Of a stretch of 64,000 nt of DNA, positions 49,268 through 63,401 are shown one piece after another (the first letter of the stretch is position 1; each line of letters opens with the position of its first letter). Origin of the DNA: an uncultured Acidobacteriota bacterium (GTDB lineage: Bacteria > Acidobacteriota > Vicinamibacteria > Vicinamibacterales > CAVVIG01). Made by a program: the position numbers and the translations under genes. Location: contig CADEDC010000003.1 of assembly GCA_902825985.1 (NCBI GenBank), positions 10,926-74,925 on the forward strand, in the 5' to 3' direction. Below the pieces are notes generated by a model. The model saw only the letters and a program-made list of their open reading frames with translations, ran no database searches and was not told the origin of the DNA.

Positions 49268-49268
49268 G

Positions 49269-49640
49269 TCAGGTCCGGAGCATGACGAGCAGCAGGATGG
49301 TCGCCGCCAGCGCGAAGATGGTGAGGGGTGCGTGGGTCATGCTCTGATCGCGCAATCCGTCCAGGGCGACGAACAGCACGCTCTGCAGCTGATGGGCCGA
49401 CGAGCTCACTTCGGGTGACGGTCCCCGACCCTCCAGCAGGTGTTCAACCTGTTCACGTACGCGTTCGTTCATCAGCATCAGGCCGGCGACGACAGCGGTG
49501 AGGCTGCCGGCTGCCGCCAGTCCACCTCGCACGCGACTCTGCATCTGAGCGTTCATGTGATCGATCTGTCCATGGCGGCACGAGGCAAACCGCGTTCCGC
49601 CGGAGGTCGGCGCGGCCGCTGACATATGGATGCGCGCCAT
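49269..49640 (-). CDS. small two-helix membrane protein, translationally coupled to the pseudo-receiver gene
   Basis: Its stop (49271-49269) lies 1 nt from the downstream ATG (49267). It has two hydrophobic helices. The start is uncertain (49640 or 49556). Confidence 0.5.
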   Translation of the reverse strand: MARIHMSAAAPTSGGTRFASCRHGQIDHMNAQMQSRVRGGLAAAGSLTAVVAGLMLMNERVREQVEHLLEGRGPSPEVSSSAHQLQSVLFVALDGLRDQSMTHAPLTIFALAATILLLVMLRT

Positions 49641-49857: not shown

Positions 49858-49873
49858 TGGCACCACAGTTGCG
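49858..49873 (+). promoter_or_regulatory. sigma-54 (RpoN) -24/-12 promoter upstream of flp1
   Basis: TGGCAC-CACAG-TTGCG is an exact match to TGGCAC-N5-TTGC(A/T), with GG and GC spaced 10 nt apart. It lies 98 bp upstream of the flp1 ATG. Confidence 0.65.
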
Positions 49874-49970: not shown

Positions 49971-50144
49971 ATGCAGTTCATCAATCGCCTTCGCCAGATC
50001 GTTCGTGAAGAGTCCGGCCAGGACCTGCTCGAGTACGCGCTGCTCGTTGCGTTGATCGCGCTCGTCGCGGTCGGCGCCGTCACCGCGGCCGGCACGACGG
50101 TCCAGGGTGTCTTCACGAACATTGCGGCGTCGATCCCTGCCTAG
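49971..50144 (+). CDS. flp: Flp family type IVb pilin (57 aa)
   Basis: MQFINRLRQIVREESG|QDLLEYALLVALIALVAVGAV carries the Flp G/XXXXEY processing motif plus a hydrophobic helix. There is a strong GGGAGGA Shine-Dalgarno. Confidence 0.9.
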   Translation: MQFINRLRQIVREESGQDLLEYALLVALIALVAVGAVTAAGTTVQGVFTNIAASIPA

Positions 50145-50154
50145 CGATGCGGTG

Positions 50155-50192
50155 CTGGCAGCGGGGCGGTCGTCCCGCCTCGCTGCTGCCAG
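50155..50192 (+). terminator. strong GC-rich stem-loop between flp1 and flp2 (attenuator or mRNA stabiliser candidate)
   Basis: GGCGG (50165-69) pairs with CCGCC (50175-79), and the stem extends by G63-C81, C62-G82, G61-C83, A60-T84, C59-G85 and G58-C86 plus wobble pairs. It starts 11 nt after the flp1 stop. There is no U-tract. Confidence 0.5.
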
Positions 50193-50209
50193 CCCGCTGG
50201 AGAACGCCC

Positions 50210-50383
50210 ATGCGACGAGTGCTCATGACGGTCCAGCGTCTGCTGACCCACACGGACGGGCAGGACCTGCTCGAGTACGGGTTCCTGATGGCCCTGATCG
50301 CGATCGTCGCGGTGACGGCAGTCTCGAATCTCGGCAACACCGTCAACACGGTCCTCTGGCAGACCATTGCCCAGAACTTCTGA
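50210..50383 (+). CDS. flp: second Flp family pilin paralog (57 aa)
   Basis: MRRVLMTVQRLLTHTDG|QDLLEYGFLMALIAIVAVTAV. GGAG lies 7 nt upstream of ATG 50210. Confidence 0.85.
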   Translation: MRRVLMTVQRLLTHTDGQDLLEYGFLMALIAIVAVTAVSNLGNTVNTVLWQTIAQNF

Positions 50384-50879
50384 CCCCGTGGCGCTCGCAG
50401 TCGTGATCGTGGGCGCCACGGTCGCTGCCATCGTCGATCTCCGGACGCGCCGCATTCCGAACCTGCTGTCGGGCGGCCTCGCCGCCCTGGGACTGCTGCT
50501 CGCCGGTCTGCAGATGACCGGCACGGGCCTCGCGGCCGCCGCCGGCGGCCTGCTCGTCGGACTCCTGTTGATGCTGCCGGGACATCTCCTCGGCCGCACG
50601 GGGGCCGGCGACGTGAAGTTGCTCGCGGCGCTCGGTACCCTGCTCGGCCCGTCAGGTGCCGCCGTCGCGTTCGTCTACACGCTGATCGCCGGCGGCGTGC
50701 TCGTCGTCATCGTCGCCGCGCAGCGCGGCCGCCTGGAGACGACCGTCTCCCGCACGGCCACCCTTGTCCGCACCGGAGGAGCCAATGTCGCCGAAATCGA
50801 ACGACCGTCCACCGACAATCGATTCGCATACGCGCCGGCGATCGCCGTCGGCGCGTGTCTGGCGGCGATTGGTGGCTGA
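50367..50879 (+). CDS. cpaA: A24-family prepilin peptidase CpaA/TadV
   Basis: AAIVDLRTRRIPN and GAGDVKLLAALG are the two catalytic Asp motifs, and the protein is polytopic. The start is uncertain (TTG 50367 or GTG 50388). Confidence 0.85.
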   Translation: MPRTSDPVALAVVIVGATVAAIVDLRTRRIPNLLSGGLAALGLLLAGLQMTGTGLAAAAGGLLVGLLLMLPGHLLGRTGAGDVKLLAALGTLLGPSGAAVAFVYTLIAGGVLVVIVAAQRGRLETTVSRTATLVRTGGANVAEIERPSTDNRFAYAPAIAVGACLAAIGG

Positions 50880-51327
50880 TTCGCCGCGGCCCGGTCTGGC
50901 GAGCGCGCGCGGCGCGGCGCTGCTCGAGACCGCCATCGCCCTGCCGCTCGTGCTGCTGGTGTCGGTCGGCATCTTCGAGTTCGGCCGTGCCTTCCAGACA
51001 TGGCAGGTCATCACGAACGCGGCGCGCGAGGGCGCCCGCGTCGCCGTGCTGCCGAACCCGGTTGCCGGCGCCGTCGAGGCCAGGGTCACCACCTACCTCC
51101 ACGCCGGCCAGCTCCCCGACGCCGACCACGCTGTCGTCAACGTCAACCGCAACGCGGCGATGAGCATCGGCACCTCGAACGCGAGCGCGTCGATCGTGAC
51201 GGTGCAATACCCGTTCAACTTCATCGTCCTCAACCCGGTCGCCCGGCTGGTGGTCGGCTCGTCGACCCTCGGGTCGGCGCCGATCACGATGACGACGTCG
51301 GCGCAGATGCGGAACGAAGCGCAGTAG
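50872..51327 (+). CDS. tadE: TadE/TadF-like pseudopilin
   Basis: ARGAALLETAIALPLVLLVSVGIFEFGRAF is a TadE N-terminal domain. The proposed GTG start overlaps the cpaA stop. The track ORF 50764..51327 runs further upstream. Confidence 0.75.
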   Translation: MADSPRPGLASARGAALLETAIALPLVLLVSVGIFEFGRAFQTWQVITNAAREGARVAVLPNPVAGAVEARVTTYLHAGQLPDADHAVVNVNRNAAMSIGTSNASASIVTVQYPFNFIVLNPVARLVVGSSTLGSAPITMTTSAQMRNEAQ

Positions 51328-51360: not shown

Positions 51361-52224
51361 ATGGCAAGGATGCGTGTCCTGATCGTGCTGGCGCTCGCGC
51401 TCACCGCCGGGAGCGTGCTCGCGTTCGCCACCTACAACATCGTCCAGAAAGGACCGCAGGGCGGCGCCACCGTGCCGACCTCGCCGGTCGTCGTCGCGGC
51501 GTCCGACCTCGCCATCGGCGCCGAGCTGAAGCCGACCGATCTCAAGGTCGTACAGTGGCCGTCGACCGCGATGCCGGCCGGCGCGATCGCGACGGCCGAG
51601 GAGATCGTCGGCCGCGGCCTCGTGATGCCGGTGATCGAGAACGAGCCGATCCTGCCGATGAAGCTCGCCTCGAAGGAGGCCGGCGCCGGACTGCCGCCGG
51701 TGATTCCACCCGGTCTGCGCGCCATGTCGGTGCGGGTCAACGAGGTCATCGGTGTCGCCGGCTACGTGCTGCCGGGCACGCGCGTCGACGTCATTGCGAC
51801 AGTGAATCCGAGCGACAAGACGTCCGACATGACGTCGAAGGTCATCCTCACCGACGTGCAGGTGCTCGCCGCCGGGACGAAGCTCGAACAGGACGGCGAC
51901 GGCGACAAGCCGATGGCGGTCAGCGTCGTGACGTTGCTCGTCAATCCGGACGAATCGGAGCGTCTGACCCTGGCCAGCGGCGAGGGCAAGATCCAGCTGG
52001 CGCTCCGCAACCCGCTCGACAAGGATGCGCCGGCGACGCGCGGCGCCCGTGCCGCCGTCCTCGTCGGCAGCCCGGCCCCGGCGCCGGCAGCCCGCCAGGC
52101 GGCGTCCCGCCGGGCGGCGGTTCCCGCGCCGGCGCCAGCCGCCGCGGTCGTCGTCGAACCGACGACGGTCGAGATGATCCGCGGCGACAAGCGGGCCCGC
52201 GAAGTCGTGCAGTCGGAGCAGTAG
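51361..52224 (+). CDS. cpaB: Flp pilus assembly protein CpaB/RcpC
   Basis: N-terminal anchor MRVLIVLALALTAGSVLAF, followed by an SAF-like region (VVVAASDLAIGAEL) and an RcpC beta-clip region. Confidence 0.85.
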   Translation: MARMRVLIVLALALTAGSVLAFATYNIVQKGPQGGATVPTSPVVVAASDLAIGAELKPTDLKVVQWPSTAMPAGAIATAEEIVGRGLVMPVIENEPILPMKLASKEAGAGLPPVIPPGLRAMSVRVNEVIGVAGYVLPGTRVDVIATVNPSDKTSDMTSKVILTDVQVLAAGTKLEQDGDGDKPMAVSVVTLLVNPDESERLTLASGEGKIQLALRNPLDKDAPATRGARAAVLVGSPAPAPAARQAASRRAAVPAPAPAAAVVVEPTTVEMIRGDKRAREVVQSEQ

Positions 52225-52227
52225 GCC

Positions 52228-54225
52228 ATGGCGACCATCAGGCAGGAAGGACACACGAGCGTGACGAACACCCACCGCGCCTCAGCTCTCATTCTGGCCA
52301 TCGCCATGTTCGGCGACGCCGCCACGATCTACGCGCAGGCGCCGGCGGCCTCGCCGGTCGCGGCGACGATTGGCGCACCGGCCACCGTGACGGAGGCGAA
52401 CACCGTCCGGCTGCTCGCCGGCCGCTCCACCATCGTCGACGTCGGCATGCCGATCGCGCGCGTGTCGCTGACCAGCCCCGACGTCGCCGATGCCATGGTG
52501 ACGACGCCGAACCAGCTGCTGGTCAACGGCAAGCTGCCGGGCACGATCTCGATGTTCGTCTGGGATCGCGGCGGCGCGCTGCGCCGCTATGAGGTGAACG
52601 TCGGCCGCGATCTCGGCCAGCTGAACGATCAGATGCGCCAGCTGTTTCCCGGCGAGCGCGTCGAGGTGCAGAGCACCGGCAAGAACGTCGTCATCTCGGG
52701 CAATGTCGCGAGCAAGGACGTCGCCGACAAGATGGCCAACGTCGCCGCCGGCTACGTCGAGAAGAAGGAGGAGGTCGTCAGCCTGCTGCAGGTCCGCCAG
52801 GGACCGGCGGCCAACCAGGTGCTGCTGCGCGTCCGCTTTGCCGAAGTGAGCCGCAGCGCGATGACCGATCTCGGCGCGAGCCTCTACGGCGACGGCGCGA
52901 AGCAGCTGATCGGCCGGGCGACGACCGGCCAGTTCGGCCAACCGGCGTCGTTCGACCAGCAGGATCCGATGGTCGGCAACACGCAGATCTTCAGCGACTT
53001 CCTCAACCTGTTCCTGTTCTCCTACAAGCACCAGGTGGGCGCGGTGATCAAGGCGCTGCAGACCAAGGGGCTGTTCCAGAGCCTCGCCGAACCGAATCTG
53101 GTCGCCGAGAGCGGCAAGGAGGCCAGCTTCCTCGCCGGCGGGGAGATTCCGGTGCCGGTCGTCCAGGGCAACGGCGGCAACATCGCGGTCAGCGTGATGT
53201 GGAAGGAGTTCGGCGTCCGGCTCAACTTCACCCCGACGGTCAACGGCAACAACGTCCGCCTCAAGGTGCGACCGGAAGTGAGCACGCTCGACTTCGGCAA
53301 CGCCATCACGCTGCAGGGCTTCCGTATTCCGGCGTTGAGCACCCGGCGCACCGAGACCGAACTCGAGCTCGAGAACGGGCAGACCTTCGCCATCGCCGGC
53401 CTGATGAACAACTCGGTGTCGACGACGATGCGCAAGATTCCCGGCATCGGCGACATCCCGGTGCTCGGCGCCCTCTTCCGCAGCAAGGCGGCACAGAAGG
53501 ATCAAACCGAGCTGGTCGTCATGATCACACCGGAAATCCTGCGTCTCGGCTCGTCCGGCGTCTCGCCGACGCTGCCGCGGGCGCCGGAGAAGTTCCTCCA
53601 GCCGATTCCGGAGAACAAGACGCAGGAGATGCCGCCGGCGGCGTTCACGCCCGGCCGCCCGACCAGCGTCACGGCCGCGGCGGCCAACGCCCCGCTGCCC
53701 GCGGTGACGTCGCCGACGACCGCGCCGGCGCGCACCGCCGCCGCCAAGTCACCCGCCGATGCCGCGGCGGCGCTCTCGGCGCTGACGCCGCATGCGCGAC
53801 CCGTGACCCACGCGCCGCTGCCCGAGCCGGCGGCGCCGTCGCCGGTCCCGGCCGTCGCGGCGGCGACACCGGCGGTGGTCCCGCTGCCGACCCGCGAGCC
53901 GCTGCCCGGCGAACTCGAGGTCGACGACCCGACGATCGACCTCGCGGCCCTGCCGCTGGCGCCGGCCACGGCGGCCGCGGCGGCACCGACCGACAGGGCG
54001 GCCGACAAGCAGCTCGAGCGCGAGCGCCGCGCGCAGGCGAAGGCGGAGAAGAAGGAAGCCGTGGCCCGCGCCCGCGATGCCGAGCGTGCCGCGAAGCTGG
54101 CGCAGGACGAGGAGAAGGCGCAGGCCAAACGTGCCGCCGCGGCGGCCCGCCAGCAGCGCGAGATCGAGAAGCGGATCGCCGCGGCAGAGAAGAAGAACGG
54201 CGGCGCGCTGGCCAGCGCGCAGTAG
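52228..54225 (+). CDS. cpaC: Flp pilus secretin CpaC/RcpA with ~227-aa low-complexity C-terminal extension
   Basis: BON-like N-terminus and a secretin core (LAEPNLVAESGKEASFLAGGEIPVP...IPGIGDIPVLGALFRS...ELVVMITPEI). This is followed by a Pro/Ala-rich tail and then a Lys/Glu/Ala-rich tail. Confidence 0.88.
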   Translation: MATIRQEGHTSVTNTHRASALILAIAMFGDAATIYAQAPAASPVAATIGAPATVTEANTVRLLAGRSTIVDVGMPIARVSLTSPDVADAMVTTPNQLLVNGKLPGTISMFVWDRGGALRRYEVNVGRDLGQLNDQMRQLFPGERVEVQSTGKNVVISGNVASKDVADKMANVAAGYVEKKEEVVSLLQVRQGPAANQVLLRVRFAEVSRSAMTDLGASLYGDGAKQLIGRATTGQFGQPASFDQQDPMVGNTQIFSDFLNLFLFSYKHQVGAVIKALQTKGLFQSLAEPNLVAESGKEASFLAGGEIPVPVVQGNGGNIAVSVMWKEFGVRLNFTPTVNGNNVRLKVRPEVSTLDFGNAITLQGFRIPALSTRRTETELELENGQTFAIAGLMNNSVSTTMRKIPGIGDIPVLGALFRSKAAQKDQTELVVMITPEILRLGSSGVSPTLPRAPEKFLQPIPENKTQEMPPAAFTPGRPTSVTAAAANAPLPAVTSPTTAPARTAAAKSPADAAAALSALTPHARPVTHAPLPEPAAPSPVPAVAAATPAVVPLPTREPLPGELEVDDPTIDLAALPLAPATAAAAAPTDRAADKQLERERRAQAKAEKKEAVARARDAERAAKLAQDEEKAQAKRAAAAARQQREIEKRIAAAEKKNGGALASAQ

Positions 54226-54264: not shown

Positions 54265-55389
54265 ATGTTCAAGCGCATCACTCACCTGCGGCGGGACGAA
54301 CGAGGGATGTCGTTCGTCTTCATCGGCATGGGCTTCATGAGCTTCCTGGCGGCGTCGACGCTTGCCATCGACGTTGGCATGCTCATGACCGCACGGACCC
54401 AGGCGCAGACGTCGGCCGACGCCGGCGCGCTCGCCGGCGCAATCGCGCTGGCCTACAACAGCGCCACCAACCTGACGTCCAGCGGACCGGCCGTGCAGGG
54501 CGCCCTGAGCGCCGCCCGCAGCGACCTCGTCATGGGCCAACAGGTGGCGGTGGACGTCGGTGACGTCACCTTCCTGCCGGATCCGGCCACCGGTGCGATG
54601 ACCCGCGTGCAGGTCCAGGTGCACCGCAGCAGCGCCCGCGGCAACCCGGTGTCGACGATGATCGGCCAGTACTTCGGCGTCGCCAACGCCGACATCACGG
54701 CAACCGCGATTGCCGAGGCGATTCCCGCCAATGCCTCGACCTGCGTCAAGCCGTTTGCGATCCCCGACAAGTGGACCGAGAAGCAGACCGCACCGTGGGA
54801 CACGACCGACGCGTTCAACGCCGCGATCCTGCCGCCGACGTTCAGCCCCGACGTCTACAAGACGATCAACGACGCCGGCTACACCGGCTACAAGCGGACC
54901 AACGTCGGCCTGCAGCTGACGATTCAGCCCGGCACCGGCCAGATCGTCGCCAGCGAGTACTACGCGCTCGACCTCGGCGGCCCGTACCAGCAGGACATCG
55001 AGGAGTGCAGCGGCGGGCGCGTCACCATCGGTGACGTGGTCCCGGCCCGGGCATTCAACAACAGCAAGACCTTCGCCGGCGTGAGCACGCTCATCGCAGA
55101 GGACGCCGGCGCCTACTGGGACGGCACCGCCAACCGGGTGATCAGCAGCGTGAACCCGAGCCCGCGCATCGTCACGCTGCCGGTGTACGACCCGGCCGTG
55201 TACGAGGCCGGCATTGCGTCCGGCGGTGCACCGCAGCTGCGCATCGCCGACTTCATCGGGTTCTTCATCACCAACGTCGCCGCCAACGGCGCGATCACCG
55301 GCCGCATCGTCCCGGTCAGCGGGCTCGTGCAGGGGACGACGCCGGTCAACACGCAGGCCTTCCCCCGATCCGTGCGCCTCGTCGGCTGA
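54265..55389 (+). CDS. tadG: TadG-like (Tad_N / TadE-G-like) pilus assembly protein
   Basis: RGMSFVFIGMGFMSFLAASTLAIDVGMLMTARTQAQTSADAGALAGA is the Tad N-terminal domain. Confidence 0.75.
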   Translation: MFKRITHLRRDERGMSFVFIGMGFMSFLAASTLAIDVGMLMTARTQAQTSADAGALAGAIALAYNSATNLTSSGPAVQGALSAARSDLVMGQQVAVDVGDVTFLPDPATGAMTRVQVQVHRSSARGNPVSTMIGQYFGVANADITATAIAEAIPANASTCVKPFAIPDKWTEKQTAPWDTTDAFNAAILPPTFSPDVYKTINDAGYTGYKRTNVGLQLTIQPGTGQIVASEYYALDLGGPYQQDIEECSGGRVTIGDVVPARAFNNSKTFAGVSTLIAEDAGAYWDGTANRVISSVNPSPRIVTLPVYDPAVYEAGIASGGAPQLRIADFIGFFITNVAANGAITGRIVPVSGLVQGTTPVNTQAFPRSVRLVG

Positions 55390-55473
55390 CGCCAGGCGCA
55401 GACAACTCGCGACGGCGCCGCCACGACTGACGTGGCGGTCTCGTCCTTCCCCCTCGTTCGGCAACTACGCCCT

Positions 55474-58400
55474 ATGGAGATAATCGACGTGCGTACCACA
55501 GAGATTCCGTCGTCCGGTGCCGCCGCGCACCGAATCGGCCGACTGGCCCTGGCGTTCGGCGCCGTGGCGCTGCCTTTCGCTGCGTTGATGACGCAGCTCG
55601 ACGCGCAGGTGCCTGCCGGCCGGTCCTTCACTTCGCTCGCGCCGGGCTACACGCAGGAGCTGATCGCGACGGTCGACGTCGGCACCTTCCCGCAGAACCC
55701 GACGATCGCCCGCGTGCTCGGGGGCGTGGCCTTCGCACCAGACGGCGACGTCTGGGCCGCCGACTGCCTGTTCCAGGACACCCGCCTGCATCGCTTCGAT
55801 ATGCAGACGGTGCGCCCGCCCCTCCACGGCACCTCGTCGCTGCGCCAGGAGACCCTGACGGTTGCCACCCAGGGCGGCTGCGGTCTGACGAACCATCCCG
55901 ACGGCGCGTTGTATTCGAACTCGGTCCAGGGCCTCTGGCGCCTCGATGCCGAGACCGGCACGATGCTGGCCGGGCCGCTCGGCCAGCCGGGCAATGCGCT
56001 CGGCGTGACGGTGGATCCGGTCACCCATCACCTCGTCTATGCCGGCGTCGACTGCCACGATCAGCTGGTGCCGAGCGGTGCCACCTGCACTCTTTGGGAC
56101 CACGACCTGGCCACCGGGACCACGGTGCCGTTCGCGATGTTCCCGCGCGCCGAGGTGCCGTTCGTCGACGGCATCTACTTCGATCCGACCGGCGCCTTCC
56201 TCTTCGTCACCAACCGGGTCGAGCGGTTGGTGACCACCCTCGACGGCGACTACGAGCTGAATCAGCTGACGATTGTCAGCCGTCCGGCGGCACCGGTCAC
56301 CGCACCCGACACGAGCCAGATCGTCCGGCATCTGCCGATGCTGAGCGAGCCGGACGGCGTGGCGTTCCACAGCGTCGACCACTTCGTCGTGACCAACGAC
56401 GAAGCCGGCGGCACGATGACGCGCTTCGACTTTCCCGGCGGCGACTTCAGCCAGGCGCCGGCGACCTACAGCGAGCTGCAGCCGGTCGACGGCTTCGGCG
56501 ATCCCGACGGGCCGGCGATCCGTGTCTACGGCACCGCCTTCGCCGCCGGCGGGCATCGCGGCGACATGTCGCAGGTCGGCCCGGACGGCTGCGTCTACGT
56601 GACGCAAGGGCGCGACTTCTTTGCGTCCGCCCGCGGCACCCGGTACGACAACCTGACGGAAACCTCGGAGGACAGCATCGTCCGGATCTGCTCGACGACC
56701 CCTGGCGGCTTCGAGCCGCCGCCGGGTGTCGAGCGCGAGAGCGGCACCGGCAGCATCGCCGGCTCGGCCTATCTGGACACCAACGGCAACCACGCCATCG
56801 ACGCGACCGACGAGTACCTCGCCGGTGTGGAGGTCGCGCTGACGGGTGCCGCGTCGGGCACTGCGACGACGACCGGCGGCCCGGCACCCGCGTACACCTT
56901 CGCCGATCTCGCCGCCGGCTCGTACACGGTGGTCGCACCGGACACGTTCGACGGCTTCGCGCTGTCGGCGGCGACCGCCGCGACCCGGGCGGCCACCATC
57001 ACCGCCGCAGGTGAGGACATCACCGGCATCGACTTCCTCTATGAACCCGGCAGCCTGCAGGGATCGGTCTATCTGGACGACAACGACAGCGGCTCGATCG
57101 ACGCGGGCGACACCTTCCTGGCCGGCGTGTCGGTGACGCTGGCCGGGCCGCGGCCCGGCAGCTCGACGTCGAGCGGCGGTCCGGTTCCGGCGTTCTCCTT
57201 CCTGCAACTGCCGGCCGGCGGCTACACCGCCAGCGTGCCCGAGCTGTTCGCGGGCTACCGTGTCGCAGCGTCGCCGGCATTCCGCGAACTCGCGGCCGGG
57301 GCGGCGGTGACCGGTGTCGACTTCCTGTACGTTCGCGGCTCGCTGTCAGGCTATGCCTACGTCGACGCCAATGCGAATCACATGAAGGATGCGGGTGAAG
57401 CGCCGCTGGCCGGGGTCAGCATCCAGCTGGCCGGCCATCCGGCGGTGATGACGGCCGCCGACGGCAGCTATGCCTTCCGCGGTCTGGCGGCCGGGACGTT
57501 CAGCGTGAGCGCGCCGGCCGAGGCCGGCGGCTACGCGCTCGCCACTTCGAATCCCCTGTCGGTGGCAGTGCCGGCGGGCGGCGCGGTTCCCGACAACAAC
57601 TTCGGCTACGTGCCGGGCGGCGTCTCCGGTTTCGCCTACATCGACTACAACAAGAACGGCGCCAAGGACCCTGGTGAGCCGGGCATCAGCGGCGTCTCGA
57701 TCGCGCTGACCGGCGGTGGCACGGCCGTCACCAGCGCCACGGGTGCCTACGGGTTCTCCAACCTCGCCGCCGGGATGCAGACCGTCACCGCCCCGGCGAC
57801 CGTACCCGGCTTCGTGCTCTCGACCATGAATCCGCTGTCGCCGATCTTGCCGGCCGGCGGCTCGGTGCCGAACCTGAACTTCGGCTATCGCGACGTCACC
57901 GTTCCGGTCTGCGCCGTGTTCGGCAGCGCCAACCCGCCGTACATGACCTACCGCGACACCGGCAGCGGCATCGTCCGCCTCGACGTCACGAAGAACCTGA
58001 ACAGCAACTTCCTCGTGACCATCACGCCCGGACCGACCGCCTTCACCCCATCGACGGTGGCGAATCCGTCGGCCATGCCAACCGCGACGTTCGCCACCTA
58101 TGCGTCGCCGACGACGTCGCTGATCACGGTGACCGCCCAGCGTATCAACACGGCGGTCTCGGCGCAGCTGGTCGTCAAGGCGACCGACGCCTTCGGCAAC
58201 GTCGTGACCTGCGATCCGGTCGAGACGACGGTGACCAAGCTGCGACACGACCGCGGGGTCCAGACGTTCACCGATCTGCCGTTCGAGGAGCACTTCGTGA
58301 CCATCGAGAACGGCACGCCCGGACTGCGCGGCCTCGATGTCGTCGTCAACGGCACCGAGTTCCGGGTTCGCGGTCTGGAAGACGGTGAGGTCAAGCGGCT

Positions 58401-58506
58401 GAACGTCCGTCGCGCGATGCTGCCGGGCCTCAACAACACGATCACCCTGGTGCCCCGCGGCCGTCGCGGTGAAAGCGCGGACGTCACCATCAGCGAGCGG
58501 CAGTAG
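55474..58506 (+). CDS. large secreted protein (1,011 aa) with a beta-propeller-like N-domain, 4 SdrD-B/Cna-B-type repeats and an unknown C-domain, embedded in the tad operon
   Basis: Signal-like RIGRLALAFGAVALPFAALMTQLDAQ. The N-half has recurring blade-like segments, followed by four ~95-aa repeats (see repeat feature). The C-terminal ~200 aa are unassigned. Confidence 0.7.
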   Translation: MEIIDVRTTEIPSSGAAAHRIGRLALAFGAVALPFAALMTQLDAQVPAGRSFTSLAPGYTQELIATVDVGTFPQNPTIARVLGGVAFAPDGDVWAADCLFQDTRLHRFDMQTVRPPLHGTSSLRQETLTVATQGGCGLTNHPDGALYSNSVQGLWRLDAETGTMLAGPLGQPGNALGVTVDPVTHHLVYAGVDCHDQLVPSGATCTLWDHDLATGTTVPFAMFPRAEVPFVDGIYFDPTGAFLFVTNRVERLVTTLDGDYELNQLTIVSRPAAPVTAPDTSQIVRHLPMLSEPDGVAFHSVDHFVVTNDEAGGTMTRFDFPGGDFSQAPATYSELQPVDGFGDPDGPAIRVYGTAFAAGGHRGDMSQVGPDGCVYVTQGRDFFASARGTRYDNLTETSEDSIVRICSTTPGGFEPPPGVERESGTGSIAGSAYLDTNGNHAIDATDEYLAGVEVALTGAASGTATTTGGPAPAYTFADLAAGSYTVVAPDTFDGFALSAATAATRAATITAAGEDITGIDFLYEPGSLQGSVYLDDNDSGSIDAGDTFLAGVSVTLAGPRPGSSTSSGGPVPAFSFLQLPAGGYTASVPELFAGYRVAASPAFRELAAGAAVTGVDFLYVRGSLSGYAYVDANANHMKDAGEAPLAGVSIQLAGHPAVMTAADGSYAFRGLAAGTFSVSAPAEAGGYALATSNPLSVAVPAGGAVPDNNFGYVPGGVSGFAYIDYNKNGAKDPGEPGISGVSIALTGGGTAVTSATGAYGFSNLAAGMQTVTAPATVPGFVLSTMNPLSPILPAGGSVPNLNFGYRDVTVPVCAVFGSANPPYMTYRDTGSGIVRLDVTKNLNSNFLVTITPGPTAFTPSTVANPSAMPTATFATYASPTTSLITVTAQRINTAVSAQLVVKATDAFGNVVTCDPVETTVTKLRHDRGVQTFTDLPFEEHFVTIENGTPGLRGLDVVVNGTEFRVRGLEDGEVKRLNVRRAMLPGLNNTITLVPRGRRGESADVTISERQ
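56749..57894 (+). repeat. four tandem ~95-aa Ig-like (SdrD B-like / carboxypeptidase-regulatory-like) coding repeats
   Basis: Each unit follows the pattern GS(I/L)xGxxY(L/V/I)DxNxNxxxDxxExxLAGVxVxLxG...Yx Fxx LAAGxYTV...P...(F/L)(G/L)Y. The repeats were read from the translation. Confidence 0.8.
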
Positions 58507-59002
58507 GCGTGCTGGTGCGCTGATTTCAGACACGGTCCGGCGTCGGTGAAGTTCTTGCTCACTTCATCGACGTCGGAGCCGTCCGCGGTCCAGCGTTCCC
58601 CACGCTGTCGTGGCGGTGCACGGTTCGGCGGGAGTGCTCGCCGGCATCCGGTCCCGCGATTGGATGGTGCAATGACAGAACTGAGGGAGCGGACCGTGAC
58701 CTGGCAGACCCGGCGACCGCCGTCCTGCCGCCCGTGTCTCGAGTTGGCGCTTCCGAATTCGTCCGCGTCAGCAAGGGAGTTGCGTGTGATGGGCGCCTTC
58801 ATCGATACGAATCCACGAAGAATCATGCACGGACCGCGGAAGAAGTTCGTGTGGAGCCGCGCCGTCGCGACGGCGACGCCGCGGCGTGCGGCACCGGCGA
58901 GGCGGCCGGTGGCGTTCACCGTGTGCGGCAGCCAGGACCGGTGTGGTGCAGCGCTGACGCCGGGGGCCGGCGCTCCGCCCGCCAGATTGTAGGAGCAGGG
59001 CG

Positions 59003-60172
59003 ATGGCTCAGCTCGCGGCGCAGATTCAATCGCAAGACGAGGAGTTCCGGCGTCGCCTCGGACGCCTGCTCCGCTCCGGCCCGATCCCGACCAGCGTCGT
59101 CGACGAGATTCGCGAGGGCGCACCGGCGGATCTCGTCATCATCGACATCCGCTTCGAGGTGTCGTCGGCGATGGCGAACATCGAGCGGCTCAGGGCGACG
59201 TCGCCGAACGTCGGCATCTTCGCGATTGCCGCCGTCGCCGATCCCGATCTGATCCTGCAGTCGATGCGGGCCGGGGCCAACGAGTTCTTCACGTGGCCGC
59301 CCGCCGACGAGACGTTCCACGGCGCCGTCCGCCGGTTGACCGCCCGCCGCGAGACGACGCAGGGGGCCAAGCCGACGTCGACGACGTTCGTGTTCTTCGG
59401 CGCCAAGGGCGGCGCCGGAACGACGACGGTGGCGGTCAACTGCGGCGTCGAGGTGGCGCGGCTGACGAAACGGTCGACGGTGATCCTCGATCTGAAGCCC
59501 GGCCTCGGCGAGGTCGGGCTGTTCCTCGGCGTCCGCCCGCGTTACACCATCGTCGACGCGCTGGACAATCTGCACCGCCTGGATCGGGAGTTCCTCCGCG
59601 AGCTGGTGACGAAGCACAAGTCGGGCCTCGAGATTCTCGCCGGCTCGGACAATTTCGACCGCCCGGGCGCCGCCGACAGCGGCGTGATCGAGGAGCTGTT
59701 CCGGCTGGTCTCGAAGCAGTACGACTACATGCTCATCGACGCCGGCAGCCAGATCAACTCGTGCGCGGTCGCGGCGCTCTACTCCGCCGACCGCATCTTC
59801 CTGATCGCCAACCCCGACGTGCCGTCGGTGCGCAACGCGCAGCGGCTGCTCGAGCGGATTCGCGAACTTGGGGCGAGCGGCGATCGGGTGCGCCTGCTGC
59901 TGAACCGCGCCGTCGAACCGCTGCCGGTGCCGCGCAAGCAGATCGAGAACGCGCTCGGGCATCCCGTGCACCACATGTTCCCGAGCGACTACAAGACGGT
60001 GTCGAACGCGCTCAACTCCGGCGTGCCGCTGACCATGGCCGGCAACTCGGACATGGCGGCGCAGTTCGACCATTTCACCCGGCAGCTGATCGATCCGTCG
60101 TTCACCGCGGCGCCGGCCGAGCCGGCCAAGAAGGGACTGCTCGGCTTCGAGAAGATTGCGTCTCTCTGGTAA
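59003..60172 (+). CDS. cpaE: CpaE/TadZ: atypical receiver domain + ParA/MinD-like ATPase
   Basis: Deviant Walker A FFGAKGGAGTTTVAVN and an N-terminal receiver-like DLVIIDIRF...ANEFFTWP. Confidence 0.88.
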   Translation: MAQLAAQIQSQDEEFRRRLGRLLRSGPIPTSVVDEIREGAPADLVIIDIRFEVSSAMANIERLRATSPNVGIFAIAAVADPDLILQSMRAGANEFFTWPPADETFHGAVRRLTARRETTQGAKPTSTTFVFFGAKGGAGTTTVAVNCGVEVARLTKRSTVILDLKPGLGEVGLFLGVRPRYTIVDALDNLHRLDREFLRELVTKHKSGLEILAGSDNFDRPGAADSGVIEELFRLVSKQYDYMLIDAGSQINSCAVAALYSADRIFLIANPDVPSVRNAQRLLERIRELGASGDRVRLLLNRAVEPLPVPRKQIENALGHPVHHMFPSDYKTVSNALNSGVPLTMAGNSDMAAQFDHFTRQLIDPSFTAAPAEPAKKGLLGFEKIASLW

Positions 60173-60178
60173 CCACCC

Positions 60179-61525
60179 ATGAGCACAGCCGCCGTCACAC
60201 CACTCGTTCGTCCCCAGCCGGCGCCGCCGGGCGGCCGCCCGCAGACGCCGCGCGCCCAGTACGTCGAGCTGAAGGCCAACGTCCATCGCCGCCTGCTGAA
60301 CCGCCTGAACCTCGAGGCGCTGGCGCAGGCCGACCGGGCGCGCGCCGAAAGCGAGATCCGGACGCTGGTCGGCGAACTGCTCGCCGAAGAGGGCGCCCCG
60401 CTCAGCCTCGGTGAGCGCGACCTGCTGTTCAGCGAGCTGGTCGACGAGGTCTTCGGCCTCGGACCGCTCGAGCCGCTGCTGCGCGACCCGTCGATCAGCG
60501 ACATCCTGGTCAACACCTACCAGCACGTCTTCGTCGAGCGCGGCGGCCGCCTCGAGCGGGTGGCGACGTCGTTCCAGGACGACCGCCATCTGTTGCGGGT
60601 CATCGATCGCATCGTCAGCGGCGTCGGTCGCCGGATCGACGACAGTTCGCCGATGGTCGACGCCCGGTTGCCCGACGGCTCGCGCGTCAACGCCATCGTG
60701 CCGCCACTGGCGGTGGACGGGCCGCTGCTCTCGATCCGGCGCTTCCCGGCCGAACGCCTCAAGGCGCAGGACCTCGTCACGCTGAAGGCGCTGACGCAAC
60801 CGATGCTCGACTTCCTGTCGCACTGCGTCCGCGCCCGCCTGAACGCCCTGATCAGCGGCGGCACCGGCGCCGGCAAGACGACGCTGCTGAACGTCCTGTC
60901 GAACTTCATCACCGAGCACGAGCGCATCGTCACCATCGAGGACGCCGCCGAACTGCAGCTGCAGCAGGAGCACGTGGCGCGGCTCGAGACGCGACCGCCG
61001 AACGTCGAAGGCAAGGGCGCCGTGAAGCAGCGGCAGCTCGTGATCAACGCCCTGCGCATGCGCCCCGACCGTATCGTCGTCGGCGAGGTGCGCGGCGAGG
61101 AGGCGCTCGACATGCTGCAGGCGATGAACACCGGCCATGACGGGTCGCTGACCACCGTCCACGCCAACACGCCGCGCGACGCCCTGTCGCGCATCGAGAC
61201 GATGATCGCGATGGGCGCGACGAACCTGCCCGAGCGCGCGATGCGCCAGCAGATCGCCTCGGCCATCCAGATCGTCGTCCAGCAGACGCGGCTGGCCGAC
61301 GGCACGCGCAAGGTGACCAGCATCTCCGAGATCACCGGCATGGAGGGCGACATCATCACCATGCAGGAGATCTTCACGTTCGACAAGCTCGGGATGACCC
61401 AGGACGGCAAGGTCGTCGGCCGGTTCCGCGCCACCGGCGTGCGCCCGAAGGTGTGCGAGCGGCTGAAGGCGGCCGGCATCCACCTGCCGGCCGACATGTT
61501 CGAGGGCGTCATGGAGGTGCGGTAG
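60179..61525 (+). CDS. cpaF: CpaF/TadA secretion ATPase
   Basis: ISDILVN, Walker [40 protein letters not shown] and [14 protein letters not shown]. Confidence 0.93.
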
Positions 61526-62491
61526 ATGACCGTCGTCCTGCTGATGTTCTGCGTCGGCGTCGGCCTCGTGGTCGGTGGCTACGCCGCAGTCATGTACCTG
61601 CCGGAGCGGTTCGAGCAGCGGCGCATCGATCGGCGGCTGCGCGACGTGTCGACGCCGGTCGCCGAGCTCGACCCCAATGGCTCGTCGCTGGTCATGAAGC
61701 CGACCGAAGGTCCGTTGCCGGGCGTCGACCGGCTGCTCGCGCGGACGTCGGCCGGCGGCGGCCTGGCCCGGCTCATCGCGCAGTCGGGCGTCAAGACGAC
61801 GCCCAGCGCGGTGGCGATCATGGCGCTGCTGCTCGGCCTGGCGGCCGGCCTGCTCACCGGCATGTTGACGAAGCCGGTCTTCGGCGTCGTCGCCGGCGTC
61901 GTCGCCGCCTTCCTGCCGCTCGCCGTCCTGATGCAGCGCCGCGGCGCCCGGATGCACCGGTTCGAGGAGCAGTTCCCGGAAGCCCTCGACCTGATGGCGC
62001 GGGCGCTGCGCGCCGGCCACGCCTTCCAGACGTCGCTCGGCATGGCCGCCGACGAGATGAAGGACCCGGTCGGTCCGGAGTTCAAGAAGACGTTCGAGCA
62101 GCAGAACTACGGTCTGCCGCTGCGCGACGCGCTGACGCAGATGTCGGAGCGCGTGCCGCTGCTCGACGTCCGCTTCTTCGTGACCGCGGTGCTGATCCAG
62201 CGCGAGACCGGCGGCAACCTGTCCGAGATCCTCGAGAACCTCGCGCATGTCGTCCGCGAGCGCTTCAAGATCCGGCGCCAGGTGCGGGTCTACACGGCGC
62301 ACGGCCGCTTCACCGCCGGCGTCCTCCTGTCGCTGCCGGCGGCGCTGGCGATTGCCCTCATGTTCATCAACCCGGAGCACATGCAGGTCCTGTTCAAGGA
62401 GCGCATGGGCCAGACGCTGCTGGTCACCGCCATCGTGATGCAGGCCATCGGGTTCGTCTGGATTCGCAACGTGATCAAGATCGAGGTCTGA
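61526..62491 (+). CDS. tadB: TadB (type II secretion system F-family platform protein)
   Basis: [22 protein letters not shown]...[19 protein letters not shown] is a T2SSF domain. The start abuts the cpaF stop. Confidence 0.88.
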
Positions 62492-62492
62492 G

Positions 62493-63401
62493 ATGACGAT
62501 CCTGCTCCCGCTTCTCGCGTTCATCTTCGCCTCGCTCGTCGTCGCGGCCGCGGCGCTGGCGCTGGCGCCGACCTCGGGCACGACCATCGAGCAGCGTCTC
62601 GGCGAGGTGATCGATCACCAGGGCCGGCCCGACGAGGAATCGCGGTTCGGCAAGGCGATGCTCGGCGCGTTCTTCCGGCTCGGGACGATGGCACCGCGCT
62701 CGGTGAAGGAGATGAGCAAGCTGCAGCAGCGGCTCATCCAGTCCGGCTATCGCGGCGGCGAGGCGCTGGTCGTCTTCTTCGGCATCCGCGTCGGCATGTC
62801 GCTGCTGTTCTTCGCGGTGTGCGCCTTCGGCCTGCTCGCCCGGCCGAACCTGGCGTTCGCGCTGGCGGCGGCCGGCCTCGGCTACGTCCTGCCGGGCATG
62901 GCGCTGGCCCGTCTGGCCAAGACCCGGCAGCACAAGATCCGGCTCGGCCTGCCCGACGCGCTCGACCTGCTGGTCGTCAGCGTCGAGGCCGGTCTCGGTC
63001 TCGATCAGGCGATTCAGCGCGTCGGCAACGAGCTCGCCTTCGCGCATCCCGAGCTGTGCGGCGAACTGCGCCTGATCAACCTCGAACTGCGGGCCGGCAA
63101 GGCCCGTTCCGAGGCGCTGCACAACCTCGCCGATCGCACCGGCGTCGACGACATCAGCTCGCTCGTCGGCATGCTCGTCCAGACCGACAAGTTCGGCACC
63201 AGCGTCGCGCAGTCGCTGCGGGTCCATTCCGACACCGTGCGGACCAAGCGGCGTCAGCGCGCCGAGGAGGCGGCGGCGAAGACCGGCGTGAAGATGGTGT
63301 TCCCGCTCGTCTTCTGCGTCTTCCCGGCCATCTGGGTCGTCACGATCGGCCCGGCGGCCATCAAGTTCATCCAGGTGGTCGGCCCGATGGCGAACAAGTA
63401 G
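62493..63401 (+). CDS. tadC: TadC (type II secretion system F-family platform protein)
   Basis: LPDALDLLVVSVEAGLGLDQAI...MLVQTDKFGTSVAQSLRVHSD...AAKTGVKMVFPLVFCVFPA. Confidence 0.88.
   Translation: MTILLPLLAFIFASLVVAAAALALAPTSGTTIEQRLGEVIDHQGRPDEESRFGKAMLGAFFRLGTMAPRSVKEMSKLQQRLIQSGYRGGEALVVFFGIRVGMSLLFFAVCAFGLLARPNLAFALAAAGLGYVLPGMALARLAKTRQHKIRLGLPDALDLLVVSVEAGLGLDQAIQRVGNELAFAHPELCGELRLINLELRAGKARSEALHNLADRTGVDDISSLVGMLVQTDKFGTSVAQSLRVHSDTVRTKRRQRAEEAAAKTGVKMVFPLVFCVFPAIWVVTIGPAAIKFIQVVGPMANK

What the first reader, a model, noticed from the sequence alone, without database searches (positions are those of the whole stretch)
55474..58506. 1,011-aa beta-propeller + SdrD-B-repeat secreted protein inserted in the middle of the Tad operon
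**Seen**
- Between tadG (ends 55389) and cpaE/tadZ (starts 59003) lies a same-strand gene.
- It encodes a signal-peptide protein whose N-half has repeated blade-like segments (e.g. ALYSNSVQGLWRLD, LGVTVDPVTHHLVYAG, VDGIYFDPTGAFLFVTN, EPDGVAFHSVDHFVVTN).
- These are followed by four ~95-aa Ig-like repeats of the SdrD-B/Cna-B type and a ~200-aa unassigned C-domain.

**Established**
- Canonical tad/cpa loci (Aggregatibacter, Caulobacter) carry pilins, peptidase, RcpCAB/CpaBCD, TadZABC(D) and TadEFG, but no large adhesin-like gene at this position.
- SdrD-B/Cna-B repeats are stalks of surface adhesins.

**Inference**
- It may be a pilus-associated or pilus-secreted adhesin or tip factor, or an effector of a Tad-like contact-dependent apparatus (compare the Myxococcus Kil system).
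- This would be a cargo/adhesin class not described for Tad pili.
Basis: partly seen in the sequence, partly recalled or inferred. Interest (0 to 1): 0.6.

Follow-up and report, generated by a model that had tools for sequence, protein, structure and literature searches.

The report
Propeller-headed adhesin gene partnered with tadG
A large exported protein, with a propeller-shaped head on a stalk of calcium-binding domains, is encoded next to the pilus-tip gene tadG in the adhesive-pilus (Tad) loci of one group of soil Acidobacteria, so these pili may use a separate adhesin, which has not been described for Tad pili.

Summary
The ORF at 55474-58506 (+) encodes an intact 1010-aa protein. It has a Sec signal peptide, a beta-propeller (AF2 pLDDT 92.8), four SdrD_B repeats, an Ig-like domain and a CBM-like jelly-roll. 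It lies between tadG and tadZ of a complete sigma-54-driven Tad locus.

It is not a core Tad gene. Six orthologous loci in relatives join tadG directly to tadZ, and the two same-genus genomes lack a tadG orthologue.

The linkage is nevertheless not random:
- Homologues at 40-74% identity occupy the same slot in ten other Acidobacteriota contigs, often as tandem paralogues.
- A more distant Tad locus carries two copies right after tadC.
- One contig has a detached tadG-BIG-small gene-BIG2 unit with its own exact sigma-54 promoter.

The propeller and the C-terminal domain each belong to large extracellular families with no Pfam model. These occur widely outside Tad contexts.

Best reading (0.45): an accessory adhesin that works physically with the TadG tip complex, following PilY1 or TcpF/CofJ logic. 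However, no PilY1 homology, pilin features or free C-terminal docking strand were found. The main rival (0.35) is a co-expressed but independent adhesin.

The parts
49858..49872 (+). Exact sigma-54 -24/-12 promoter (TGGCAC-N5-TTGC) upstream of flp1. Probable promoter of the whole operon, BIG included.
   Evidence: It is the only exact match in the 64-kb window. The same motif lies upstream of flp in L008, L011, L048-L050, L052, L058 and L059. No promoter-like or terminator-like site was found in 55300-59100.
49971..50383 (+). Two Flp pilin genes: flp1 at 49971-50144 and flp2 at 50210-50383.
   Evidence: Both translations carry G|QDLLEY. Pfam Flp_Fap match.
50367..51327 (+). Prepilin peptidase (A24, 50367-50879) and TadE minor pilin (ORF 50764-51327; the true start is probably later).
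   Evidence: Pfam Peptidase_A24 1.1e-15 and TadE 6.4e-15.
51361..54225 (+). CpaB/RcpC (51361-52224) and CpaC/RcpA secretin (52228-54225).
   Evidence: TIGR03177 6.8e-64; Pfam Secretin 1e-43.
54265..55389 (+). TadG-like minor-pilin-like protein, 374 aa, with no vWA module. It is the gene that stays next to BIG in most loci with BIG.
   Evidence: Pfam Tad PF13400 2.7e-8; sequence. It is 53% identical to the TadG of the detached tadG-BIG module in L060.
55474..55614 (+). BIG: Sec-type signal peptide, residues 1 to about 47.
   Evidence: Read from the sequence and the alignment with orthologues. No lipobox and no prepilin motif.
55618..56730 (+). BIG: beta-propeller head, residues about 49-419, from a family with no Pfam model. 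Three probable disulfides (C98/C136, C194/C205, C373/C406; the pairing is inferred from sequence order, and C136, C194, C205, C373 and C406 are invariant).
   Evidence: AF2 pLDDT 92.8; Foldseek; PDB profile search. More than 100 homologues have other C-terminal parts. Invariant residues.
56749..57891 (+). BIG: four SdrD_B (Ca2+-binding Ig-like) repeats forming a stalk, residues 426-806.
   Evidence: Pfam SdrD_B 5e-34. Repeat starts and pairwise identities. The repeat number varies among homologues, which range from 742 to 1247 aa.
57898..58497 (+). BIG: C-terminal Ig-like sandwich (about 809-905) plus beta-jelly-roll (about 907-1008).
   Evidence: AF2 pLDDT 86.7. Foldseek matches Xyn30D (a GH30-CBM35 xylanase), VesC and CBM domains, at low TM because the query has two domains. 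1039 representative clusters carry this domain, nearly always at the extreme C-terminus. It is single-copy in this genome.
58507..59002 (+). 496-bp gap holding the decayed remnant of a small secreted-protein gene. The 148-aa ORF at 58546-58992 is not coding-like.
   Evidence: GC by codon position is 0.62/0.68/0.75, against 0.63/0.52/0.85 for the intact 160-aa gene in L008. Only the 5' and 3' ends still align. Intact homologues follow BIG in L008, L011, L014 and L060.
59003..63401 (+). TadZ/CpaE (59003-60172), CpaF/TadA ATPase (60179-61525), TadB (61526-62491) and TadC (62493-63401).
   Evidence: Pfam and NCBIfam matches.

Best explanation
BIG is an accessory adhesin of this Tad (type IVc) pilus, genetically partnered with the tip protein TadG.

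Proposed mechanism:
1. It is transcribed with the pilus genes from the sigma-54 promoter upstream of flp (inferred).
2. It is exported to the periplasm by Sec, where disulfides form (inferred from the sequence).
3. It associates with the TadE/TadG tip complex and leaves the cell through the CpaC secretin when the pilus extends. It either stays at the tip (PilY1-like) or is handed off (TcpF/CofJ-like). This step is inferred only from gene linkage.
4. Outside the cell, the beta-propeller head binds a ligand, the four Ca2+-binding SdrD_B domains act as a rigid stalk, and the C-terminal Ig plus jelly-roll module binds carbohydrate.

Shown here: the gene, its domain architecture and folds, the recurrent tadG linkage and the sigma-54 context.
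Not shown: transcription, export route, location and ligand.
For: - Same slot elsewhere. Homologues (40-74% identical) lie in the tadG|tadZ slot of ten other Acidobacteriota contigs. Gaps are as small as 4-30 nt (L057, L058), and tandem paralogues are frequent. All nine genomic look-ups of homologues found the gene next to Tad genes.
- Second arrangement. L015, a distant Tad locus, has two copies directly after tadC.
- Detached module. L060 has tadG (53% identical to the window's) 12 nt upstream of BIG, followed by the small gene and BIG2, with no other Tad gene within 10 kb. An exact sigma-54 promoter sits 86 nt upstream of tadG, with a chance expectation of 0.01 per locus.
- Common origin. 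Tad-linked copies and their genomic paralogues group together in the propeller tree, apart from homologues of other phyla.
- Rate of change. BIG is about 69% identical between the window and L008, in the range of the other exposed parts (CpaC 71%, TadG 79%).
- Operon context. No own promoter or terminator signal was found around BIG.
- Room for a separate adhesin. TadG here is short (374 aa) with no vWA or other adhesive module.
- Extracytoplasmic and adhesin-like features. Sec signal, eight cysteines, SdrD_B stalk and a CBM-like tail.
Against: - Accessory, not required. Six orthologous Tad loci lack BIG, with tadG and tadZ 16-46 nt apart. Their TadG aligns end to end with the window's, so the tip complex does not need BIG.
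- No pilin features and no match to the Pfam PilY1 model. PilY1 is absent from the top 50 Foldseek hits.
- No free docking strand. The C-terminus is the last strand of a confidently folded jelly-roll. Paralogues have at least three unrelated C-termini, so there is no shared PilY1-like C-terminal strand.
- The domains are not Tad-specific. The propeller family is widespread outside Tad loci, including in Arthrobacter and Nocardioides. Paralogues L016 and L017 lie away from Tad genes.
- Another export route is available. The genome has four other secretins, including a probable T2SS.
- The partner is decayed. The conserved small partner gene is a remnant in this window.
Confidence: 0.45

Rival explanations
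1. Co-expressed but physically independent adhesin. BIG sits in the operon only so that it is made when pili are made. It reaches the surface by another route, such as the T2SS, and binds surfaces or polysaccharide on its own.
For: - The propeller and C-terminal domain families are general extracellular modules found without Tad genes.
- Paralogues lie outside Tad loci (L016, L017).
- BIG is absent from six sister loci.
- Other secretins and a probable T2SS are present.
- No docking feature was found.
Against: Regulation alone does not explain why the gene stays next to tadG in particular. That includes the detached tadG-BIG sigma-54 unit. Nor does it explain the repeated placement at the boundary of Tad gene blocks in three different arrangements.
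Confidence: 0.35
2. Passenger exoprotein unrelated to adhesion or pili. For example, a lectin-like or polymer-binding scavenging protein whose gene was inserted by chance and is carried along.
For: - Patchy distribution on the Tad core tree.
- Rare in the class sample (2 of 401 genomes).
- Relatives of the propeller are fused to esterases, M23 peptidase and Ntn-hydrolase, and relatives of the C-terminal domain to a PGAP1-like esterase, a C39-like peptidase and a caspase domain.
Against: Thirteen loci, including the window, show Tad or tadG linkage across 40-74% sequence divergence. Tad-linked copies group together in the propeller tree. A chance insertion would not recur in three arrangements.
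Confidence: 0.12
3. Periplasmic or outer-membrane structural or regulatory part of the machine, for example replacing the TadD/RcpB functions that are missing from this locus.
For: No TadD or RcpB homologue was seen in the locus. In L058, BIG directly follows the secretin and no TadE or TadG is called.
Against: Sister loci work without it. A propeller plus a 1-4-repeat stalk of variable length plus a CBM-like tail is the build of an exposed adhesin, not of a machine part. It also has no lipobox.
Confidence: 0.05

Closest known systems
PilC/PilY1 (and MshQ), the non-pilin tip adhesins of type IVa/MSHA pili
   Same: A large Sec-exported non-pilin protein with a beta-propeller, encoded next to minor-pilin genes. 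The part away from the conserved propeller is variable.
   Different: - No sequence match to the Pfam PilY1 model, and no PilY1 among the top structural hits.
- The propeller is N-terminal here, not C-terminal.
- No free C-terminal beta-strand for strand addition.
- Published work places the strand donor of Tad pili in TadG/CpaL itself (PMC13533445).
- BIG is dispensable in sister loci.
TcpF (V. cholerae TCP) and CofJ (ETEC CFA/III), soluble factors encoded in type IVb pilus operons and exported by docking on the tip minor pilin (from my own knowledge)
   Same: An operon-embedded, Sec-dependent, non-pilin protein that could use the pilus and secretin as its exit.
   Different: No homology detected. 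BIG is four to five times larger, with a stalk typical of surface-retained adhesins. Pilus-dependent secretion is untested.
TadG/CpaL and Myxococcus KilN 'Tip' proteins (PMC12075869, PMC11870444)
   Same: They diversify the Tad pilus tip with variable modules. Tip modules can be detached gene clusters, as in L060 and L047 here.
   Different: In those proteins the variable domain is part of the pilin-like protein. BIG has no pilin-like helix or Tad domain and is a separate polypeptide.
Staphylococcal Sdr MSCRAMM adhesins (SdrC/SdrD)
   Same: SdrD_B Ca2+-binding repeats are used as a stalk between a binding head and a C-terminal end.
   Different: - The head is a propeller, not a DEv-IgG A-domain.
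- No SD repeats and no LPXTG.
- The host is a diderm.
- NCBIfam scores are 34 bits against a cut-off of 2500.

Membership tests
PilC/PilY1 tip adhesins | PilY1/PilC C-terminal beta-propeller domain (homology) | tested here: not met
   No PilY1/PilC family appeared in the Pfam scans even at E<=10. The top 50 Foldseek PDB hits are generic propellers with no PilY1 among them.
PilC/PilY1 tip adhesins | Short conserved C-terminal beta-strand that complements the PilK-type minor pilin | tested here: not met
   The last strand is part of a jelly-roll, with pLDDT 93-98 over residues 100-210 of the fragment model. Tad-linked paralogues end in at least three unrelated sequences. No complex prediction was possible.
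PilC/PilY1 tip adhesins | Non-pilin, Sec-exported, encoded beside minor pilin genes | tested here: met
   Signal peptide. Adjacent to tadG in the window and in most of the Tad-linked loci, including the detached unit in L060.
TadG/CpaL minor-pilin-like proteins | N-terminal pilin-like hydrophobic helix / Tad (PF13400) domain | tested here: not met
   BIG has no PF13400 hit, whereas the neighbouring gene does.
MSCRAMM Sdr adhesins | SdrD_B repeats | tested here: met
   PF17210 at 5e-34; four repeats.
MSCRAMM Sdr adhesins | Full-length family match with A-domain and LPXTG anchor | tested here: not met
   NF012181 scores 33.7 bits against a cut-off of 2500. No LPXTG in the sequence. The head is a propeller.
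Genome-wide C-terminal sorting domains (e.g. T9SS CTD) | The same C-terminal domain on many exported proteins of one genome, or a match to a known sorting-domain model | tested here: not met
   One copy in G000 and none in 60 relatives. No NCBIfam or Pfam sorting-domain hit.
TcpF/CofJ-type pilus-exported factors | Secretion depends on the pilus machine and on binding to the tip minor pilin | not testable with these tools
   This needs secretome analysis of pilus mutants or complex modelling.
Core Tad machinery | Present in all orthologous Tad loci | tested here: not met
   Absent from L048-L053, where tadG and tadZ are adjacent.

The most novel reading that the evidence does not exclude
Tad (type IVc) pili of a group of Acidobacteriota carry a separate, Sec-exported, non-pilin adhesin that is recruited by TadG. 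This would be a functional counterpart of PilY1 that uses a different docking mode. The tadG-BIG(-small gene-BIG2) unit would then be a portable, sigma-54-controlled 'tip cassette' that is gained, lost, duplicated and swapped to change what the pilus sticks to. Earlier scan notes describe propeller-plus-stalk genes of apparently different kinds (Kelch, BNR) in Chloroflexota Tad loci. Taken together, these cases would point to a general, overlooked class of Tad tip accessories.
Probability: 0.2. Interest if true: 0.8.

Novelty: new variant of a known kind. Interest (0 to 1): 0.55.

Why it matters
Current models (2025-2026) build the Tad pilus tip only from TadE, TadF and TadG/CpaL, and state that Tad pili have no PilC/PilY1-type adhesin. 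A conserved non-pilin partner of tadG would add a component class to the most widespread adhesive pilus of bacteria. It would also give a handle on how abundant but poorly cultured soil Acidobacteria attach to surfaces. Separately, the work defines two large extracellular domain families that have no Pfam model: the propeller head and the C-terminal Ig plus jelly-roll module.

Tried and rejected
- Core-component idea: rejected, because six syntenic loci lack the gene.
- Species-specific one-off insertion: this was suggested by the absence from 60 relatives. It was rejected after metagenomic and MAG contigs showed the same slot occupied.
- C-terminal domain as a genome-wide sorting tag: rejected (single copy).
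- C-terminal domain as the Tad-docking module: could not be tested. The domain is rare in the phylum sample (2 of 401).
- Co-variation with BIG presence: neither TadG length or C-terminus nor the CpaC tail tracks BIG (coverage tables).
- Standalone TadE-TadG modules in relatives (L047, L054): they are followed by housekeeping genes, not adhesins.
- The 148-aa ORF as a partner gene: rejected as non-coding.
- Kil-like effector: no supporting feature.
- Genome of L060: not held, so I could not check whether a Tad core lies elsewhere in it.
- Sensitivity caveat: the class and phylum searches scored only 5-8 candidates per genome, so rarity is a lower-sensitivity estimate.
Full report
**1. What is there**

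The + strand frame from 55432 (GTG) or 55474 (ATG) to 58506 is open. From the ATG it encodes 1010 aa. Full-length orthologues align end to end, so the gene is intact. Its GC by codon position (0.65/0.54/0.89) matches tadG and tadZ.

Surrounding genes, from Pfam and NCBIfam:
- two Flp pilins with G|QDLLEY sites (49971-50144 and 50210-50383)
- A24 prepilin peptidase
- TadE
- CpaB
- CpaC secretin
- a 374-aa TadG-like protein (54265-55389)
- the large gene, here called BIG
- a 496-bp gap
- TadZ, CpaF, TadB and TadC
- an AAA+ gene that runs off the window

The only exact sigma-54 promoter in the window lies upstream of flp1, at 49858-49872. Simple scans find no promoter-like or terminator-like site around BIG.

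**2. Anatomy of BIG**

- Residues 1 to about 47 form a Sec signal peptide. There is no lipobox and no prepilin site.
- Residues about 49-419 form a beta-propeller.
  - A profile of 28 homologues hits WD40/YVTN propellers in the PDB.
  - The AF2 model has pLDDT 92.8 and pTM 0.91 with 27 strands, consistent with six or seven blades.
  - Foldseek returns only generic propellers (YncE, strictosidine synthase, NHL, lactonases) at TM 0.4-0.5, so there is no close structural relative.
  - No Pfam model matches.
- Residues 426-806 are four SdrD_B repeats with Ca2+-loop motifs.
- Residues about 809-1008 fold (pLDDT 86.7) into an Ig-like sandwich and a jelly-roll. The best structural matches are Xyn30D (a GH30-CBM35 xylanase), the C-terminal domain of VesC, and other CBMs.
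- Eight cysteines, likely forming four pairs, fit an extracytoplasmic protein.

**3. The two unassigned domains are widespread modules**

The propeller occurs at the N-terminus of more than 100 retrieved proteins. Their C-terminal parts vary: DUF11, He_PIG, Big_1, esterases, M23 peptidase and others. These proteins come from Acidimicrobiia, Arthrobacter, Nocardioides, Chloroflexota, Planctomycetota, Dormibacterota, Polyangia and other groups. No Tad gene lies within 10 kb in those cases.

The C-terminal module matches 1039 representative clusters. It is almost always at the extreme C-terminus of diverse exoproteins. In this genome it is single-copy, and it is absent from 60 relatives. It is therefore not a genome-wide sorting tag here.

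**4. Is BIG part of the Tad system?**

Against a core role:
- The two same-genus genomes lack a tadG orthologue altogether.
- Six orthologous loci in related genera keep the same flanking genes and gene order, but have tadG 16-46 nt from tadZ.
- Only 2 of 401 genomes sampled from the class have the propeller. Only five candidates per genome were scored, so sensitivity was limited.

For a specific link:
- Every homologue whose genomic context I looked up lies next to Tad genes (9 of 9 look-ups).
- The tadG|tadZ slot is occupied in these contigs:

| Locus | Content of the slot |
|---|---|
| JGI 3300067032 contig | two tandem paralogues plus a small gene |
| L008 | two tandem paralogues plus a small gene |
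| L011 | one copy plus the small gene |
| L012 | one copy |
| L014 | two copies |
| L035 | one copy (frameshifted assembly) |
| L057 | one copy; gaps of 13 and 24 nt |
| L058 | one copy directly after the secretin, 4 nt before tadZ; no TadE or TadG called |
| L059 | one copy |
| L061 | one copy (frameshifted assembly) |

- L015, a distant Vicinamibacterales Tad locus, has two copies directly after tadC.
- L060 is the most informative case. Its tadG is 53% identical to the window's over the full length. That tadG lies 12 nt upstream of a BIG homologue, followed by the small gene and a second BIG, with no other Tad gene within 10 kb. An exact sigma-54 promoter sits 86 nt upstream of tadG, with a chance expectation of 0.01 per locus.
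- A copy in G409 lies 5 kb from a TadE-TadE-TadG(vWA) cluster.
- Paralogues L016 and L017, from genomes that also have a Tad-linked copy, lie elsewhere.

**5. Evolution**

On a tree of concatenated Tad core proteins, loci with BIG are interspersed with loci without it. On the propeller tree, the Tad-linked copies and their paralogues group together, apart from homologues of other phyla, with support of 0.87-0.99.

The simplest reading is an old recruitment into this lineage's Tad locus. This was followed by tandem duplication, paralogue sorting, relocation and repeated clean loss, which is the behaviour of an accessory, diversifying surface factor. Stalk length varies among homologues, which range from 742 to 1247 aa. 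Between the window and L008, BIG is about 69% identical, in the range of CpaC (71%) and TadG (79%), while CpaF is 95% identical.

**6. Companion gene**

A small signal-peptide protein of 160-260 aa, with no Pfam match, follows BIG in L008, L011, L014 and L060. In the window only its two ends survive inside the 496-bp gap. The 148-aa ORF there is not coding-like.

**7. Mechanism**

Published work builds Tad tips from TadE/TadF and TadG/CpaL. In that model TadG carries the variable or adhesive domain and donates its own C-terminal strand, and Tad pili are stated to lack PilC/PilY1 (PMC13533445, PMC12075869). Full-text searches found no paper describing a separate adhesin in Tad loci.

The tadG-BIG linkage, including the detached sigma-54 unit, is the gene logic of PilY1 with its minor pilins, or of TcpF/CofJ with type IVb pili. 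My best explanation is therefore a pilus-coupled accessory adhesin (0.45).

The evidence against is substantial:
- There are no pilin features and no PilY1 homology.
- The C-terminus is buried in a folded domain.
- Paralogues have unrelated C-termini.
- Sister loci work without BIG.
- The genome has four other secretins, including a probable T2SS and a second Tad locus.

A co-expressed but independent adhesin is nearly as likely (0.35).

**8. Limits**

- No complex modelling was available.
- Several MAG loci (L011, L035, L061) carry frameshifts, which appear in long-read assemblies.

Noticed in passing
window 58507-59002: The 148-aa ORF (58546-58992) is Arg-rich and not coding-like. The gap is the remnant of a roughly 160-260-aa signal-peptide protein gene that follows BIG intact in L008, L011, L014 and L060. 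Only about 40 nt at each end still align.
   Followed up: yes
L060 8734-17300 (NCBI GCA_016307145.1): A detached unit of tadG, BIG, the small gene and BIG2, with its own exact sigma-54 promoter and no other Tad gene within 10 kb. A sigma-54 activator gene lies 5 kb upstream.
   Followed up: partly
L058 6180-14963 (JGI 3300030620): A Tad locus of the same type in which no TadE or TadG gene is called. BIG directly follows the secretin and ends 4 nt before tadZ.
   Followed up: no
L047 12054-13813 (G026) and L054 5340-7043 (G018): Standalone TadE-TadG gene pairs outside any Tad core locus. The one in L047 has an exact sigma-54 promoter. This is reminiscent of the detached 'Tip' clusters of Myxococcus.
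   Followed up: partly
L051 3825-6612 (G049): Two tandem TadG paralogues (50% and 47% identical to the window's TadG) upstream of tadZ.
   Followed up: no
window 57898-58497 and proteins P0125-P0273: The C-terminal Ig plus jelly-roll module defines a family of more than 1000 clusters with no Pfam model. It is almost always the last domain of diverse exoproteins (He_PIG, NHL plus esterase, C39-like peptidase, caspase). It also occurs nearly alone in roughly 250-aa Cys-rich secreted proteins.
   Followed up: partly
L008 15900-16438, and P0012-P0014, P0018, P0019, P0021, P0023: The second tandem paralogue carries a different conserved C-terminal domain (VTYTQGGWG...NENFDNGTTNNGFLVP) with no Pfam match.
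   Followed up: no
window 46505-49640 (- strand): The divergent gene pair (123 aa plus 920 aa) next to the flp promoter is conserved beside nearly every orthologous Tad locus examined. Only the first ~137 residues of the large protein stay alignable.
   Followed up: partly
G000 contig C47 20295-24547: A second, BIG-less Tad locus in the same genome: a TadG-like gene 35% identical to the window's, a secretin and a CpaF-like ATPase. The genome has five secretins in total.
   Followed up: no
window 55504-55506: The database cluster representative P0002 differs from the window's protein at residue 11 (T instead of I), although it is listed as 100% identical.
   Followed up: no
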